From NCBI GenBank assembly GCA_030681555.1, contig JAUXRW010000125.1, forward strand, positions 1,730-65,729: a stretch of DNA of 64,000 bases. Direction: 5' to 3'. The notes under the pieces were generated by a model, which saw only the letters and a program-made list of their open reading frames with translations, did no database searches and was not told the DNA's origin. Source of the stretch: Acidimicrobiales bacterium. GTDB taxonomy: Bacteria; Actinomycetota; Acidimicrobiia; Acidimicrobiales; VFJN01. Shown piece after piece: positions 20,361 to 23,509 of the stretch; positions within the stretch are counted from its first letter, which is position 1; each line of letters opens with the position of its first letter. The translations under genes and the position numbers were made by a program.

Positions 20361-20552
20361 TCAGCGGGGGGAGGGGGAGGGCTGGGCCAGGCCGTGCTCG
20401 TAGGCAAAGGCGGCGGCGGCGGTGCGCGTGGTGACGCCGATCTTCGTGAACGTGTTGGAGAGGTGGCGCGCCACGGTGCGCTCGCTGAGGTGGAGCTCGG
20501 ACGCGATGTGCTTGTTCGTGCGGCCGGACGCGACGAGCGTCAGCACCTCGGC
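20361..20552 (-). pseudogene. 3' piece of an IS-split LuxR-family regulator gene (HTH domain)
   Basis: It encodes [40 protein letters not shown], the LuxR/FixJ C-terminal HTH. It is in frame with the 5' piece at 22016-23509 once the IS is removed. Confidence 0.85.
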
Positions 20553-20554
20553 CT

Positions 20555-20770
20555 AATGGGAGTCGACCGCCTCGCTCATCTCGGTGGGTGAGGATGGTTC
20601 CGAGCCGCCGGTCGGTCAGCACTCTCTTGGCCCGGACGTCGAGTCCTAACGCTAGATCGTGCGCCGGCTGGTCGGTGAGGAGACCTCGGATGGCTGGTGG
20701 GATGACGTGCCTCGAGCACTGAACCATTAGGGAGCTGCTGGTCGCCTCGGGCTCGAACGGTGACGACCAG
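20555..20770 (+). ncRNA. Candidate IS110 bridge (guide) RNA region in the left non-coding arm
   Basis: This roughly 220-nt non-coding arm lies upstream of the transposase gene. It contains short exact matches to both insertion-site flanks and to both IS termini (coordinates are listed in the findings). RNA ends and fold are not determined. Confidence 0.4.
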
Positions 20771-20779
20771 GAGGTGCTG

Positions 20780-21994
20780 ATGGGGAAGGTGTTCGTTGGT
20801 CATGACTGGGCTGAGGCCCACCATGACGTCTTCGTCGAGGACGGCGATGGCCGCCGCCTTGGCGGGGGCCGTCTCCCGGAGGGAGTCGAGGGCGTGGCTT
20901 GGTTCCACGCGCTTGTGGCCGATCACATCGAGGACCCGGCCGATGTGGTGATCGCGACGGAGACCGACCGGGGTCTCTTCGTCGGAGCGATGGTCGCCGC
21001 CGGCTACACGGTCTTGGCTGTCAACCCGCTGTCGACGTCGCGTTACCGCGAGCGGCTCTCGACCTCTGGAGCGAAGTCCGACCCCGGTGATGCCCGGGTG
21101 CTGGCCGAGCTGGCCCGTCTCGATGGCCACAACCACCGGCCCGTCGCCGGGGACAGCGAACTGGTCGAGGCGGTCAAGGTCCTGGCCCGGGCCCACCAGG
21201 GCTTGATCTGGACCCGGCAGCGGCAGCTCAACCAGCTCCGCTCGACCCTGCGGGAGTTCTATCCCGCGGCGCTCGCCGCGTTCCCGGAGCTGAACCACAA
21301 CGATGCGCTCACCGTGCTGGCGATCGCGCCGACACCGTCGCTGGGCCGACAGCTGTCGATCTCCAAGATCGCCGCCGCGCTACGCCGCGGCGGCCGGCAA
21401 CGACGAGTCGAGCAACGAGCCGGTGAGATCCAAGCGGCCCTGCGTTCAGAGCAGCTCGCCGCCCCAGACCTCGTCTCGGAGTCGATGGGCTCAGTCACCC
21501 GGGCCCTCGTCGCGGTCGCCGCCGAGCTGACCGCCCAGATCAACGGTCTCGAGCTCGAACTGGCCGACCGTTTTGAGCAGCACCCGGCCGCCAAGGTCAT
21601 CCGTTCCCTGCCAGGACTGGGGATGACGCTCGGCGCCCGGGTGCTCGGCGAGTTCGGGGATGACCCGAACCGCTATGCCGACGCCAAGTGTCGCAAGAAC
21701 TACGCCGGCACGTCACCCATCACCCGAGCCTCAGGCCGCAGCCACGTCGTCCTCGCCCGCTACGCCCGCAACAAACGCCTCGCTGACGCCTGCCAGATGT
21801 GGGCCTTCGCCGCGATCAACACCAGCCCCGGGGCCCGAGCGTTCTACGACCAGCACCGAGCGGTCGGCGCCACCCACCAACGAGCGCTACGGGCCCTGGC
21901 CAACCGACTCGTCGGGATCCTCCACGGCTGCCTACGCCACGGTACCATCTACGACGAACACACCGCCTGGGGGCACCGAGCAATCGCCGCTTGA
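20780..21994 (+). CDS. IS110-family transposase (DEDD N-terminal domain plus Transposase_20 C-terminal domain)
   Basis: MGKVFVGHDWAEAHHDV..., KSDPGDARVLAEL, SLPGLGMTLGARVLGEFGD and YAGTSPITRASGRS are present. AGGAGG lies 5 nt upstream of ATG 20780. The track ORF starts 6 nt earlier at a GTG. Confidence 0.9.
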   Translation: MGKVFVGHDWAEAHHDVFVEDGDGRRLGGGRLPEGVEGVAWFHALVADHIEDPADVVIATETDRGLFVGAMVAAGYTVLAVNPLSTSRYRERLSTSGAKSDPGDARVLAELARLDGHNHRPVAGDSELVEAVKVLARAHQGLIWTRQRQLNQLRSTLREFYPAALAAFPELNHNDALTVLAIAPTPSLGRQLSISKIAAALRRGGRQRRVEQRAGEIQAALRSEQLAAPDLVSESMGSVTRALVAVAAELTAQINGLELELADRFEQHPAAKVIRSLPGLGMTLGARVLGEFGDDPNRYADAKCRKNYAGTSPITRASGRSHVVLARYARNKRLADACQMWAFAAINTSPGARAFYDQHRAVGATHQRALRALANRLVGILHGCLRHGTIYDEHTAWGHRAIAA

Positions 21995-22015
21995 CGCAAT
22001 ACGGGCGTGGGATGT

Positions 22016-23509
22016 CTAGCGGTGGGTGAGGCCGCCGGGAAGCGTGGTGGGCTGGGCGAGGTCGCGCAGCGCACGAATCTCGATCGCCGCGCCCAATCGG
22101 TCGAAGATCTCAGCGGCCTGGCGGAGCGAAGCCGCCGCCCCCTCCTCGTCGCCGCAGGTGCGGCAGGCCTGACCGATGAGCAGCCGGGCGGTGGCCACCT
22201 CGTACGGCACCTCGAGGGCCAGCCACTGCTGGAGCGCCTGCTGCAGGGTGGCGCAGGCCTGGGCCGGATCGCCGCAGGCCAGCTGCAGCCGGCCGCGGGC
22301 CGAGAGGGCCGACGCCGTGAGCAGTGGCCCGTCGTGAGCCTCCGCGATGGCCTCGAGCTCGGCGGCCGCCGACTCCGCGCTAGTGAGGTCTCCGGCGGCG
22401 ACTGCGATCTGCACCTGCGCAGGGAGCAGCTTGGCTCGCGCCAGCTGGTTCCACGTCTGCTCGCCGAGCAGCCGACCGATGAGGGCTGCGGCGGCGTCGA
22501 TGCGCTGCTGGGCCAGCCGGACGAGGGCCATGCCCGCGCTCTGCTGGCCGCTGAGCCGCTCGGCCTTCGCGAACGCCTCCTCAGCACCGTCGAGGTCGCC
22601 CAGCCGCCGACGGATCTCGCCGATCTCCACGTGGCCGGCGGCGACGTTCGGGATGTGGAACCCGTCGAGCTCGTCGCAGGCCCGGCGGGCCTCGCGCTCG
22701 GCCGCCTCCCAGTCGCCGTGCATCTGCAGCAGGGCGGCGTGGTGCACCCGGCAGATCCCCGGCCACATCGCGAACGGGTGGGCCTCGGACCAGCGCAAGG
22801 TGGCCTCGGTCCACTCGGCCGCTCGCCGCAGGTCGCCGAGCAGCTCACAGGCGCTGATCATGCTGCAATGCACCTTGCCGGCGCTGAACGGCGAGAGCTT
22901 GCCCTCCACCGCAGTGAGCATGGCTTCGTCGAGCTGGCCCAGGCCGTCCTCCACCTGACCGAGGTCGATGAGCACCCGGCCCGCGGCCTGCTGAGCCTCG
23001 GCCTCGAGGTCGGCCGACCCCAGCCGTCGCCCCAGCGCGATGGCTTCGCGCGCCAGTGCGAGCGCACCTTCGAGGTCGCCGCCGCCGTGCGTGACCTCGG
23101 CGCGCCGCGTGAGGAGGTTGCCGTAGACGAGGCCGTCGGTGTGCCCCTGCAGCGAGCGCTCGGCCCGCCGCAGCCACGCGCCCGAGATGGCCGAGCGCGT
23201 CTTCATCATGTTGTGCTCGTACAGCCACACGGCGCACTGCCCGGCGCGCTCGTGGTCGCCGACGGCCTCGTACTTCGCGTGCGCCTGTTCACGGTGGGCG
23301 ATGCAGTCGTCGAGGCTGCCGAGCCACCACGATGCGTCGGCGACGAGGTCGCATCGTTCGGCCTCCGAGCGGTCGTCCGCGGTGGTGACGGCAGCGGCGG
23401 CCTGGGCGAGCTCGAGCGCCTCCGCCCAAGCCCACCGGCCGAGCGCTTCCCGTGCGGGCGCGAGCACGTCCGGGTCGCCGCCGACCTCGTCCTGCTCCCG
23501 CTCGGCCAT
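22016..23509 (-). pseudogene. 5' piece of the IS-split LuxR-family regulator gene (helical-repeat/TPR-like sensor part)
   Basis: 497 codons from ATG 23509, ending in ...PGGLTHR followed by the TAG formed at the IS junction. The expected continuation (the REx-EVL HTH) is at 20361-20552. Confidence 0.85.

What the first reader, a model, noticed from the sequence alone, without database searches (positions are those of the whole stretch)
20361..23509. IS110-family element precisely splits a LuxR-family regulator inside its HTH linker
On the minus strand, the 5' gene piece ends ...PGGLTHR and then reads TAG (22016-22018). The 3' piece resumes after a second TAG (20553-20555) with [17 protein letters not shown]. 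Removing the roughly 1463 bp between the two junction CT(A) copies rejoins the two pieces in frame, giving LTHR-x-AEVL. This matches the usual LTxRExEVL spacing. The junction codon reads TAG where Glu (GAG) is expected, which is a one-base difference (plus-strand CTA versus CTC at 22016-22018). The repeated CT at both junctions matches the conserved CT core dinucleotide reported for IS110-type recombination. The split gene sits downstream of a co-directional cupin gene that it may have regulated.
Basis: partly seen in the sequence, partly recalled or inferred. Interest (0 to 1): 0.55.

Follow-up and report, generated by a model that had tools for sequence, protein, structure and literature searches.

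The report
IS110 element at amber codon in LuxR gene
A 1.46-kb RNA-guided IS110-family insertion sequence sits inside a TPR-LuxR regulator gene of an Acidimicrobiales genome, but its own guide RNA reads a CTAG target, so the TAG stop at the junction most likely existed before the element arrived; this is an ordinary mobile-element insertion with one instructive twist.

Summary
An intact IS110-family element lies on the + strand. Its CT cores are at 20553-20554 and 22016-22017, its body is 20555-22015, and its transposase gene is 20780-21994. It separates the two halves of one minus-strand TPR-LuxR gene.

In the best homologues the N piece ends at residue n and the C piece restarts at n+2. The missing residue is Glu in 114 of 114 intact homologues.

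The 225-nt left end encodes a complete IS621-type bridge RNA. Its four guides match the two flanks and the element's own ends. Sixty-four related elements confirm the boundaries and show that the shared core is CT only. The third base at the right junction therefore comes from the target, and the right target guide (RTG) pairs with it in 58 of 59 elements.

The window's guide, ACGCUAG, pairs with CTAGCG, not with the ancestral CTCGCG. Exact excision would leave TAG, not GAG. So the gene most likely already carried an amber mutation, and that mutation created the CTAG target.

No empty site could be found to prove the order of events. This is a new member of a known kind and of modest interest.

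The parts
22019..23509 (-). N-terminal piece of the TPR-LuxR regulator (497 codons from ATG 23509). NCBI calls a 505-aa product, which implies a start near 23533.
   Evidence: TPR_12 at 43 bits. P0001 is 100% identical; intact homologues of 550-560 aa are up to 75% identical.
22016..22018 (-). In-frame TAG at the position where homologues have Glu. On the + strand this is CTA: the right copy of the CT core plus the first target base.
   Evidence: 114/114 Glu; exactly one residue is missing.
20364..20552 (-). C-terminal piece of the same gene, the LuxR/GerE HTH (63 codons; stop codon at 20361-20363).
   Evidence: GerE 5.5e-16, profile positions 9-57; the rejoined protein matches profile positions 3-57 at 69 bits.
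20553..20554 (+). Left copy of the CT core dinucleotide.
   Evidence: CT is present at both junctions in 63 of 64 related elements.
20555..22015 (+). Body of the IS110-family element (1461 bp; 1463 bp with one core copy).
   Evidence: similarity to about 60 relatives starts at about 20551-20553 and stops at about 22019; conserved ends CTA|ATGGG and GGGATGT|CTA.
20570..20593 (+). 5' stem-loop of the bridge RNA (CCTCGCTCA / TGGGTGAGG).
   Evidence: minimum-free-energy fold; the arms are conserved and co-vary in the alignment.
20604..20676 (+). Target-binding loop module: outer stem 20604-20622 paired with 20659-20676, and inner hairpin 20634-20646.
   Evidence: consensus structure over 43 sequences; 11 pairs show compensatory changes (for example columns 19/76: CG 16, AU 15, GU 6, GC 3).
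20624..20632 (+). Left target guide CUCUUGGCC. It has the same sense as the left flank 20545-20553 (ACCTCGGCC), giving 6 Watson-Crick and 2 G.U pairs with the bottom strand.
   Evidence: across the family 5.36 of 8 positions pair, against 3.31 +/- 0.17 in permutations.
20649..20655 (+). Right target guide ACGCUAG. It is complementary to the right flank CTAGCG (22016-21), 6 of 7 positions. U20653 pairs with A22018.
   Evidence: the three distal positions pair 2.69 of 3 against 1.50 +/- 0.10 in permutations. Position 3 pairs as U:A 52, G:C 4, A:T 1, G.T 1, with 1 mismatch.
20697..20706 (+). Left donor guide GUGGGAUGAC. It has the same sense as the right-end terminus 22007-22016.
   Evidence: conserved in all relatives.
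20724..20730 (+). Right donor guide CCAUUAG, complementary to CTAATGG (core plus the start of the left end, 20553-20559).
   Evidence: conserved in relatives.
20780..21994 (+). Intact IS110-family DEDD/serine recombinase gene (404 aa), with an AGGAGG ribosome-binding site at 20769-20774.
   Evidence: PF01548 and PF02371; matches ISCro4 (9t56) and IS621 (8wt6). P0121 is annotated 'IS110 family transposase'.
21991..21996 (+). TTGACG, a -35-like hexamer in the right end. In a circle joined RE-CT-LE it would lie 18 nt upstream of TCTAAT.
   Evidence: TTGAC[AG] is present in all 52 distinct right ends shown. It lies 17-18 nt from the junction TCTAAT in 46 of them; the other 6 are the CTC/CTT elements, where the script's join did not form that hexamer. 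Expression was not tested.
23566..23934 (-). Conserved 122-aa cupin-like gene, 53 nt upstream of the regulator and in the same direction.
   Evidence: the same 122-aa gene precedes the intact regulator in L085 and L086; cupin hits are below Pfam's thresholds.

Best explanation
**What is there.** A single, intact, 1463-bp insertion sequence of the IS110 subgroup sits in a TPR-LuxR regulator gene of an Acidimicrobiales bacterium. It has a long left non-coding end and a short right end.

**How it works (by analogy with IS621).** The left end encodes a bridge RNA with two internal loops.
- The donor loop (GUGGGAUGAC ... CCAUUAG) reads the element's own joined ends.
- The target loop (CUCUUGGCC ... 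ACGCUAG) reads the two flanks of the insertion site.
- Recombination is by exchange at a CT core.

**Why the TAG matters.** The base after the core on the right side comes from the target and is paired by the guide. The site recognised was therefore 5'-CCTCGGC-CT-AGCG-3'. On the coding strand this is CGC TAG GCC, an amber codon where every homologue has Glu.

**Most likely history.** A GAG-to-TAG nonsense mutation first truncated the regulator before its HTH. That mutation created a rare CTAG site matching the guide, and the element then inserted there.

**Shown:** element identity, boundaries, CT core, guide-flank complementarity, family-wide covariation, and one-gene colinearity.

**Inferred:** the order of the two events, and RNA expression from a promoter formed only in the excised circle.
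For: **Element and gene**
- Recombinase domains.
- Boundaries from about 60 relatives.
- The two gene pieces are colinear with one residue missing, and that residue is Glu in 114/114 homologues.

**Core and guides**
- The core is CT only, because six relatives have CTA on the left but CTC or CTT on the right.
- Guides were located, and the target-loop structure has compensatory pairs.
- Guide-flank pairing far exceeds permutations.
- The guide base opposite the third target base pairs in 58 of 59 elements. Every one of the 52 with U faces A.

**CTAG as the target**
- CTAG is 8-fold under-represented (21 found against 162 expected in 62.5 kb). CTCG/CGAG occurs 1560 times. The uniform CTA(G) at right junctions is therefore not a matter of availability.
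- In relatives the junction often falls on a TAG that already ends an ORF: 14 of 53 sites by a GC3 test, with protein C-termini that look natural. In L081, L082 and L084 the called genes stop exactly at the junction.

**Mechanism from the literature**
- In IS621 the top strand is cut right after CT, and the RTG stays paired with positions 10-14 of the target (PMC11208158).
- Mismatch tolerance is low (PMC11208160).
Against: - No empty site or uninterrupted close allele was found (the best intact homologue is 75% identical). The ancestral base is therefore inferred, not seen.
- Both gene pieces are otherwise undamaged, so any period as a pseudogene before insertion was short.
- IS621 does insert at one- or two-mismatch and half-match sites at percent-level frequencies (PMC11208160; bioRxiv 10.64898/2026.08.31.748434).
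- Surviving natural insertions are filtered by selection, which weakens the 52/52 argument.
- Other equally good CTAG sites in the window are unoccupied.
Confidence: 0.6

Rival explanations
1. The element inserted into an intact gene at the near-cognate site CCTCGGC-CT-CGCG, which has one mismatch next to the core. It thereby inactivated the regulator. A later C-to-A substitution at 22018 happened to restore pairing with the guide and created the TAG.
For: - The ancestral-form site still ranks 16th of 6137 CT sites in the window for guide pairing.
- IS621 off-targets commonly carry one or two mismatches (PMC11208160), and half-match insertion exists (bioRxiv 10.64898/2026.08.31.748434).
- Both gene pieces are otherwise intact.
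Against: - It needs a specific neutral substitution at one base in an otherwise undamaged locus.
- None of the 52 relatives with U in the guide shows a non-A base at the right junction, although CTCG-type sites are far more abundant than CTAG.
Confidence: 0.17
2. The element entered an intact gene at CTCG, and the base next to the core was rewritten to A as part of the event. This could happen through repair templated on the donor's CTA, or through an effective three-base exchange region.
For: - Donor and target both read CTA in most of the clade.
Against: - Six relatives keep different third bases at the two junctions, and their guides pair with the right-hand one. This fits a two-base core.
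- Only the window's site, of about 57 examined, has coding sequence continuing in frame after the TAG. If conversion were routine, many in-gene insertions would be expected.
Confidence: 0.08
3. The flanks are chimeric or an assembly artefact: the two LuxR pieces come from different genes or contigs joined through a repeated IS.
For: The source is a metagenome-assembled genome, and IS copies commonly break or mis-join assemblies. Many close relatives sit on contigs of about 1.47 kb.
Against: - The pieces abut with exactly one residue missing in every top homologue.
- The GerE match extends across the join.
- Both flanks pair with the element's own target guides.
- There is no second copy in the window.
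Confidence: 0.03

Closest known systems
IS621 (E. coli), the reference bridge-RNA IS110 element (PMC11208160, PMC11208158)
   Same: - Same recombinase architecture (DEDD RuvC-like domain plus a Tnp domain with serine).
- Long left end encoding an RNA with a 5' hairpin and two internal loops.
[quoted passage not shown]
- CT core.
- A -35 in the right end and a -10 formed across the circle junction.
- Two bases after the RTG (AU) can pair with the donor's last bases, like IS621's handshake guides.
   Different: - Protein similarity is weak (phmmer E 2.4e-12, C-terminal domain only).
- The RTG is 7 nt, of which CUAG is nearly invariant in the clade, so targets share CTAG. IS621 targets REP elements.
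- The left target guide usually pairs only with the C of the core.
- No experimental data exist for this element.
ISCro4 transposase (PDB 9t56)
   Same: It is the best solved-structure match, and both domains align (E 6.7e-13).
   Different: It is distant in sequence, and its RNA and target were not compared here.
Actinobacterial IS110-family elements of Mycobacterium, the source of Rfam Ms_AS-4
   Same: Relatives at 60-64% amino-acid identity occur in Mycobacterium genomes (L051, L054, L062, L071). The Rfam model RF02464 matches the antisense strand of the recombinase gene at 90 bits.
   Different: The Rfam hit reflects conserved coding sequence. It is not the bridge RNA, and no Rfam family matched the left end.
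IS1111 subgroup / seekRNA elements (bioRxiv 10.1101/2024.04.26.591405)
   Same: Same recombinase family and the same principle of RNA-guided target choice.
   Different: Those elements carry the guide RNA in a long right end and have subterminal inverted repeats. Here the left end is 225 nt and the right end 21 nt, and no repeat pairs the two ends.

Membership tests
IS110 family (IS110 subgroup, bridge-RNA elements) | Recombinase with an N-terminal DEDD RuvC-like domain and a C-terminal Tnp domain | tested here: met
   PF01548 at 113 bits and PF02371 at 45 bits, both above their cut-offs. Both domains align to ISCro4, and the Tnp domain to IS621.
IS110 family (IS110 subgroup, bridge-RNA elements) | No terminal inverted repeats, and no target duplication beyond a short shared core | tested here: met
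   No inverted repeat joins the two ends. Only CT is common to both junctions across relatives.
IS110 family (IS110 subgroup, bridge-RNA elements) | Left non-coding end much longer than the right | tested here: met
   The left end is 20555-20779 (225 nt) and the right end is 21995-22015 (21 nt).
IS110 family (IS110 subgroup, bridge-RNA elements) | An RNA encoded in the left end with two internal loops, whose sides pair with target and donor half-sites including the core | tested here: met
   Guides located. Target-loop stems have compensatory changes. Guide-flank concordance is about 12 sd above permutations. The outer stem of the donor loop was not resolved.
IS110 family (IS110 subgroup, bridge-RNA elements) | CT core dinucleotide | tested here: met
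   CT is at both junctions here and in 63 of 64 related elements; L044 has CC on the left.
IS110 family (IS110 subgroup, bridge-RNA elements) | A promoter reconstituted across the RE-LE junction of an excised circle, and expression of the RNA | not testable with these tools
   The sequence is compatible: TTGACG-N18-TCTAAT forms only in the circle, and the -35 is present in all 52 distinct right ends shown. There are no expression or circle data.
LuxR/GerE-type HTH regulators with an N-terminal TPR region | C-terminal GerE four-helix DNA-binding domain | tested here: met
   Only when the pieces are rejoined: profile positions 3-57, 69 bits. As the sequence stands, the domain is split after helix 1's LTHR.
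MalT/LAL-type large ATP-binding LuxR regulators | N-terminal P-loop ATPase domain | tested here: not met
   No ATPase family was hit. TPR_MalT scored 37 bits, below its cut-off of 45. The 'MalT' names from JGI are automatic labels.

The most novel reading that the evidence does not exclude
The element entered an intact regulator gene at CTCG, and bridge recombination or its repair rewrote the first target base to the A specified by the guide and donor. On this reading the amber codon is a product of the insertion, which would mean these recombinases can edit a flanking base. A milder version holds that this clade exploits TAG stop codons as harmless landing sites. The left end begins with A, so C-TAG becomes C-TAA on the left and stays C-TAG on the right. 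On that version, nonsense mutations create new landing sites.
Probability: 0.08. Interest if true: 0.7.

Novelty: new member of a known kind. Interest (0 to 1): 0.33.

Why it matters
On its own this is a routine insertion into a non-essential regulator.

Its value is as a worked natural example. The bridge RNA of an uncharacterised actinobacterial IS110 clade can be read straight from the sequence. Its guides predict the flanks, and the guide shows that the stop codon at the junction belongs to the recognised target.

This changes the inferred cause of gene loss from 'IS hit' to 'nonsense mutation, then IS'. It also shows that pseudogene histories next to RNA-guided elements can be ordered from sequence alone.

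The clade's CTAG requirement puts many copies exactly on TAG stop codons without destroying the stop. That may help explain why these elements are tolerated.

Tried and rejected
- **Second copy of the element in the window.** None found.
- **Rfam.** No bridge-RNA family matched the left end. The only strong hit, Ms_AS-4, lies antisense inside the recombinase gene.
- **Exact-protein look-ups** of the window's recombinase and of P0001. Neither is on record.
- **Empty-site search in metagenomes,** using a 42-nt pattern with N at the critical base. Nothing found.
- **Search for other copies with the same two guides.** Nothing found. The four closest relatives (93-95% amino-acid identity) all carry different guides that match their own flanks.
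- **GTCAGCAC (20615-20622) matching the left flank as a guide.** Rejected: it is an invariant structural part of the RNA in all relatives.
- **A third guide in the 5' hairpin.** The 12-nt identity with the right flank has p of about 1e-3 against the window background. Relatives show no such tendency (own versus other targets, p = 0.26).
- **Stop-codon targeting beyond the CTAG requirement.** Rejected: 14 of 53 insertion sites are at ORF ends, against 6 of 20 other CTAG sites in the window.
- **TAG read-through or reassignment.** Rejected: the two other in-frame TAG cases are ordinary tandem gene pairs, nitrilase/permease and Ku/LigD.
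Full report
**1. Observation**

The minus strand between 23509 and 20361 carries one regulator gene in two pieces.
- The N piece (23509-22019, 497 codons) has TPR repeats. It ends ...PGGLTHR and is followed by TAG (22018-22016).
- The C piece (20552-20364) begins [17 protein letters not shown] and matches the GerE/LuxR HTH from profile position 9.

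When the pieces are rejoined through one Glu, the GerE match extends to positions 3-57 and rises from 58 to 69 bits.

A search of 5.8 billion proteins found the N piece itself (P0001, 'hypothetical protein', Acidimicrobiales MAG, contig of 77 kb). It also found about 1900 intact homologues of 550-560 aa, the best 75% identical.
- In 114 of 114 homologues with a recognisable motif, the residue between L[TS]xR and xEVL is Glu.
- In the six best homologues the N piece ends at residue n and the C piece starts at n+2.

The two pieces are therefore one gene, and exactly one codon is unaccounted for. The break lies in helix 1 of the HTH domain, not in a linker.

**2. The inserted element**

The intervening + strand encodes a 404-aa protein (ATG 20780, AGGAGG at 20769-20774, stop at 21994). 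It carries PF01548 and PF02371 and is annotated at NCBI as an IS110 family transposase (P0121). It is distantly similar to the solved ISCro4 and IS621 recombinases. No second copy is in the window.

Eighty related loci from GTDB genomes were collected; they are 54-83% identical in protein and mostly from Acidimicrobiia. Four closer ones came from metagenomes, at 93-95%.

Nucleotide similarity to the window starts at 20551-20553 and ends at about 22019 in most of them. In 64 elements with both ends, the left junction reads N-CTA-ATGGG and the right junction reads GGGATGT-CTA-(G), with unrelated flanks.

Six more distant elements read CTA on the left but CTC (L055, L056, L058, L059) or CTT (L065, L074) on the right. 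Only CT is therefore shared between element and target. The A after the left CT is the first base of the element, and the base after the right CT is the first base of the target.

With one core copy the element is 1463 bp (20555-22017). No inverted repeat joins its ends. The left non-coding end is 225 nt and the right is 21 nt, which is the arrangement of the IS110 subgroup (PMC11208160).

**3. The bridge RNA**

I followed the published rule (PMC11208160):
[quoted passage not shown] - both sides include the core.

All four guides are present.

| Guide | Coordinates | Sequence | Matches |
|---|---|---|---|
| Left donor guide | 20697-20706 | GUGGGAUGAC | right-end terminus GTGGGATGTC |
| Right donor guide | 20724-20730 | CCAUUAG | complement of CTAATGG |
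| Left target guide | 20624-20632 | CUCUUGGCC | left flank ACCTCGGCC (6 Watson-Crick + 2 G.U of 9) |
| Right target guide (RTG) | 20649-20655 | ACGCUAG | CTAGCGG at 22016-22022 (6 of 7) |

A consensus fold of 43 left ends gives an outer stem, a GCAC/GUGC clamp and an inner hairpin that bracket the two target guides. Eleven pairs show compensatory changes.

Across 59 distinct element-site pairs:
- the left guide pairs at 5.36 of 8 positions, against 3.31 +/- 0.17 when elements and sites are permuted;
- the three distal bases of the right guide pair at 2.69 of 3, against 1.50 +/- 0.10.

The four closest relatives each carry different guides that fit their own flanks.

The right end holds TTGAC[AG] in all 52 distinct right ends shown. 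In a circle joined RE-CT-LE this lies 17-18 nt upstream of TCTAAT in 46 of them, as described for the family's junction promoter. The other six are the CTC/CTT elements, where the script's join did not form that hexamer. Expression could not be tested.

**4. The junction TAG**

The guide base opposite the third target base pairs with it in 58 of 59 elements: U:A 52, G:C 4, A:T 1, G.T 1. The fourth base co-varies as well: C:G 47, G:C 3, U:A 3.

In the window, U20653 faces A22018. The ancestral Glu codon would put a C there.

In IS621 the top strand is cut immediately after CT, and the right target guide stays paired with target positions 10-14 through strand exchange (PMC11208158). Newer single-strand insertion models likewise take the right flank from the target. 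On present knowledge, then, A22018 was in the target.

CTAG is rare in this genome: 21 occurrences in 62.5 kb where composition predicts 162, against 1560 for CTCG/CGAG. The clade's uniform CTA(G) therefore reflects a requirement, not availability.

In relatives the junction often falls on the TAG that already ends an ORF.
- This holds for 14 of 53 sites by a GC3 criterion. The C-termini look natural, for example ribosomal protein S20, FtsK and a Dyp peroxidase.
- In L081, L082 and L084 the called genes stop exactly at the junction.
- The stop is kept in every case: C-TAG becomes C-TAA on the left and stays C-TAG on the right.

This frequency matches that of ordinary CTAG sites in the window (6 of 20). 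It is a by-product of where CTAG occurs, not evidence of stop-codon homing.

The window's site is the only one of about 57 where coding sequence continues in frame after the TAG.

The simplest history is a GAG-to-TAG mutation that truncated the regulator and at the same time created a cognate CTAG site, followed by insertion.
- The alternative of insertion at the mismatched CTCG also needs the same specific substitution, afterwards and for no reason. I rate it several-fold less likely.
- A conversion mechanism is not excluded, but the six CTA/CTC and CTA/CTT elements argue against it.

**5. Limits**

No empty site was found. The 42-nt pattern with a free critical base gave nothing in metagenomes, and no other copy with these guides exists there. 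The order of events therefore remains an inference.

Equally good CTAG sites in the window are unoccupied.

The window comes from a MAG. Chimerism is unlikely given the exact colinearity and the fit of the guides to both flanks.

**6. Context**

The regulator follows a conserved 122-aa cupin-like gene and faces a divergent MDMPI_N plus methyltransferase pair. The same arrangement occurs around the intact regulator in two other Acidimicrobiales contigs. Regulation of the small gene is plausible but untested.

**7. Verdict**

This is a real, precisely bounded and apparently functional IS110-subgroup element: a new member of a known kind. Its reading of the TAG needs revising, because the amber codon is part of the target the element's RNA recognises and probably preceded the insertion. 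Interest is modest.

Noticed in passing
window 21607-21688 (minus strand): Rfam RF02464 (Actinobacteria sRNA Ms_AS-4) matches at 90 bits over its full length, antisense inside the recombinase ORF. The family model evidently captures conserved IS110-type transposase coding sequence.
   Followed up: partly
window 20582-20593 = 22020-22031, and 20604-20611 = 22031-22038: The 3' arm of the bridge RNA's 5' hairpin is identical over 12 nt to the right flank, and a colinear 8-nt match follows. Against the window background 6 of 5384 segments score as well (about 1e-3), but relatives show no such tendency. It is probably chance and remains unexplained.
   Followed up: yes
L044 (JAOSKI010000042.1), junctions at about 1272 and 2738: This decaying relative has CCA instead of CTA at the left junction and CTA at the right. 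Its right target guide reads CUGG, which would pair with CCAG. This may be a natural case of unequal cores in target and donor.
   Followed up: no
L032 (CAVZAH010000013.1) 1273-2742 and 2745-4116: A complete copy is followed directly by a second copy that lacks its first ~100 nt and begins at its own right-target-guide DNA (GGCCTAGACC...). The guide-coding DNA contains CTAGGCC, which is the element's own cognate right half-site. This suggests self-targeting or a half-match rearrangement.
   Followed up: no
window-wide (62.5 kb without the IS): CTAG occurs 21 times where base composition predicts 162. About a third of the sites are TAG stops of long ORFs.
   Followed up: yes
window 20332-20367: A 9-bp unit (GCGCGCTCA on the + strand) is tandemly repeated at the 3' end of the regulator gene. 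On the coding strand this gives three successive in-frame TGA codons.
   Followed up: no
window 38479-38481 and 26695-26697: Two tandem gene pairs, Ku then LigD-like, and nitrilase-like then AI-2E-type permease, are separated only by a C-TAG stop with the downstream gene in the same frame. These are ordinary operon junctions, not read-through.
   Followed up: yes
one search hit list: Many close relatives of the recombinase sit on contigs of 1467-1474 bp, the length of the element itself. This is consistent with multi-copy repeats collapsing in assemblies, or possibly with circular forms.
   Followed up: no
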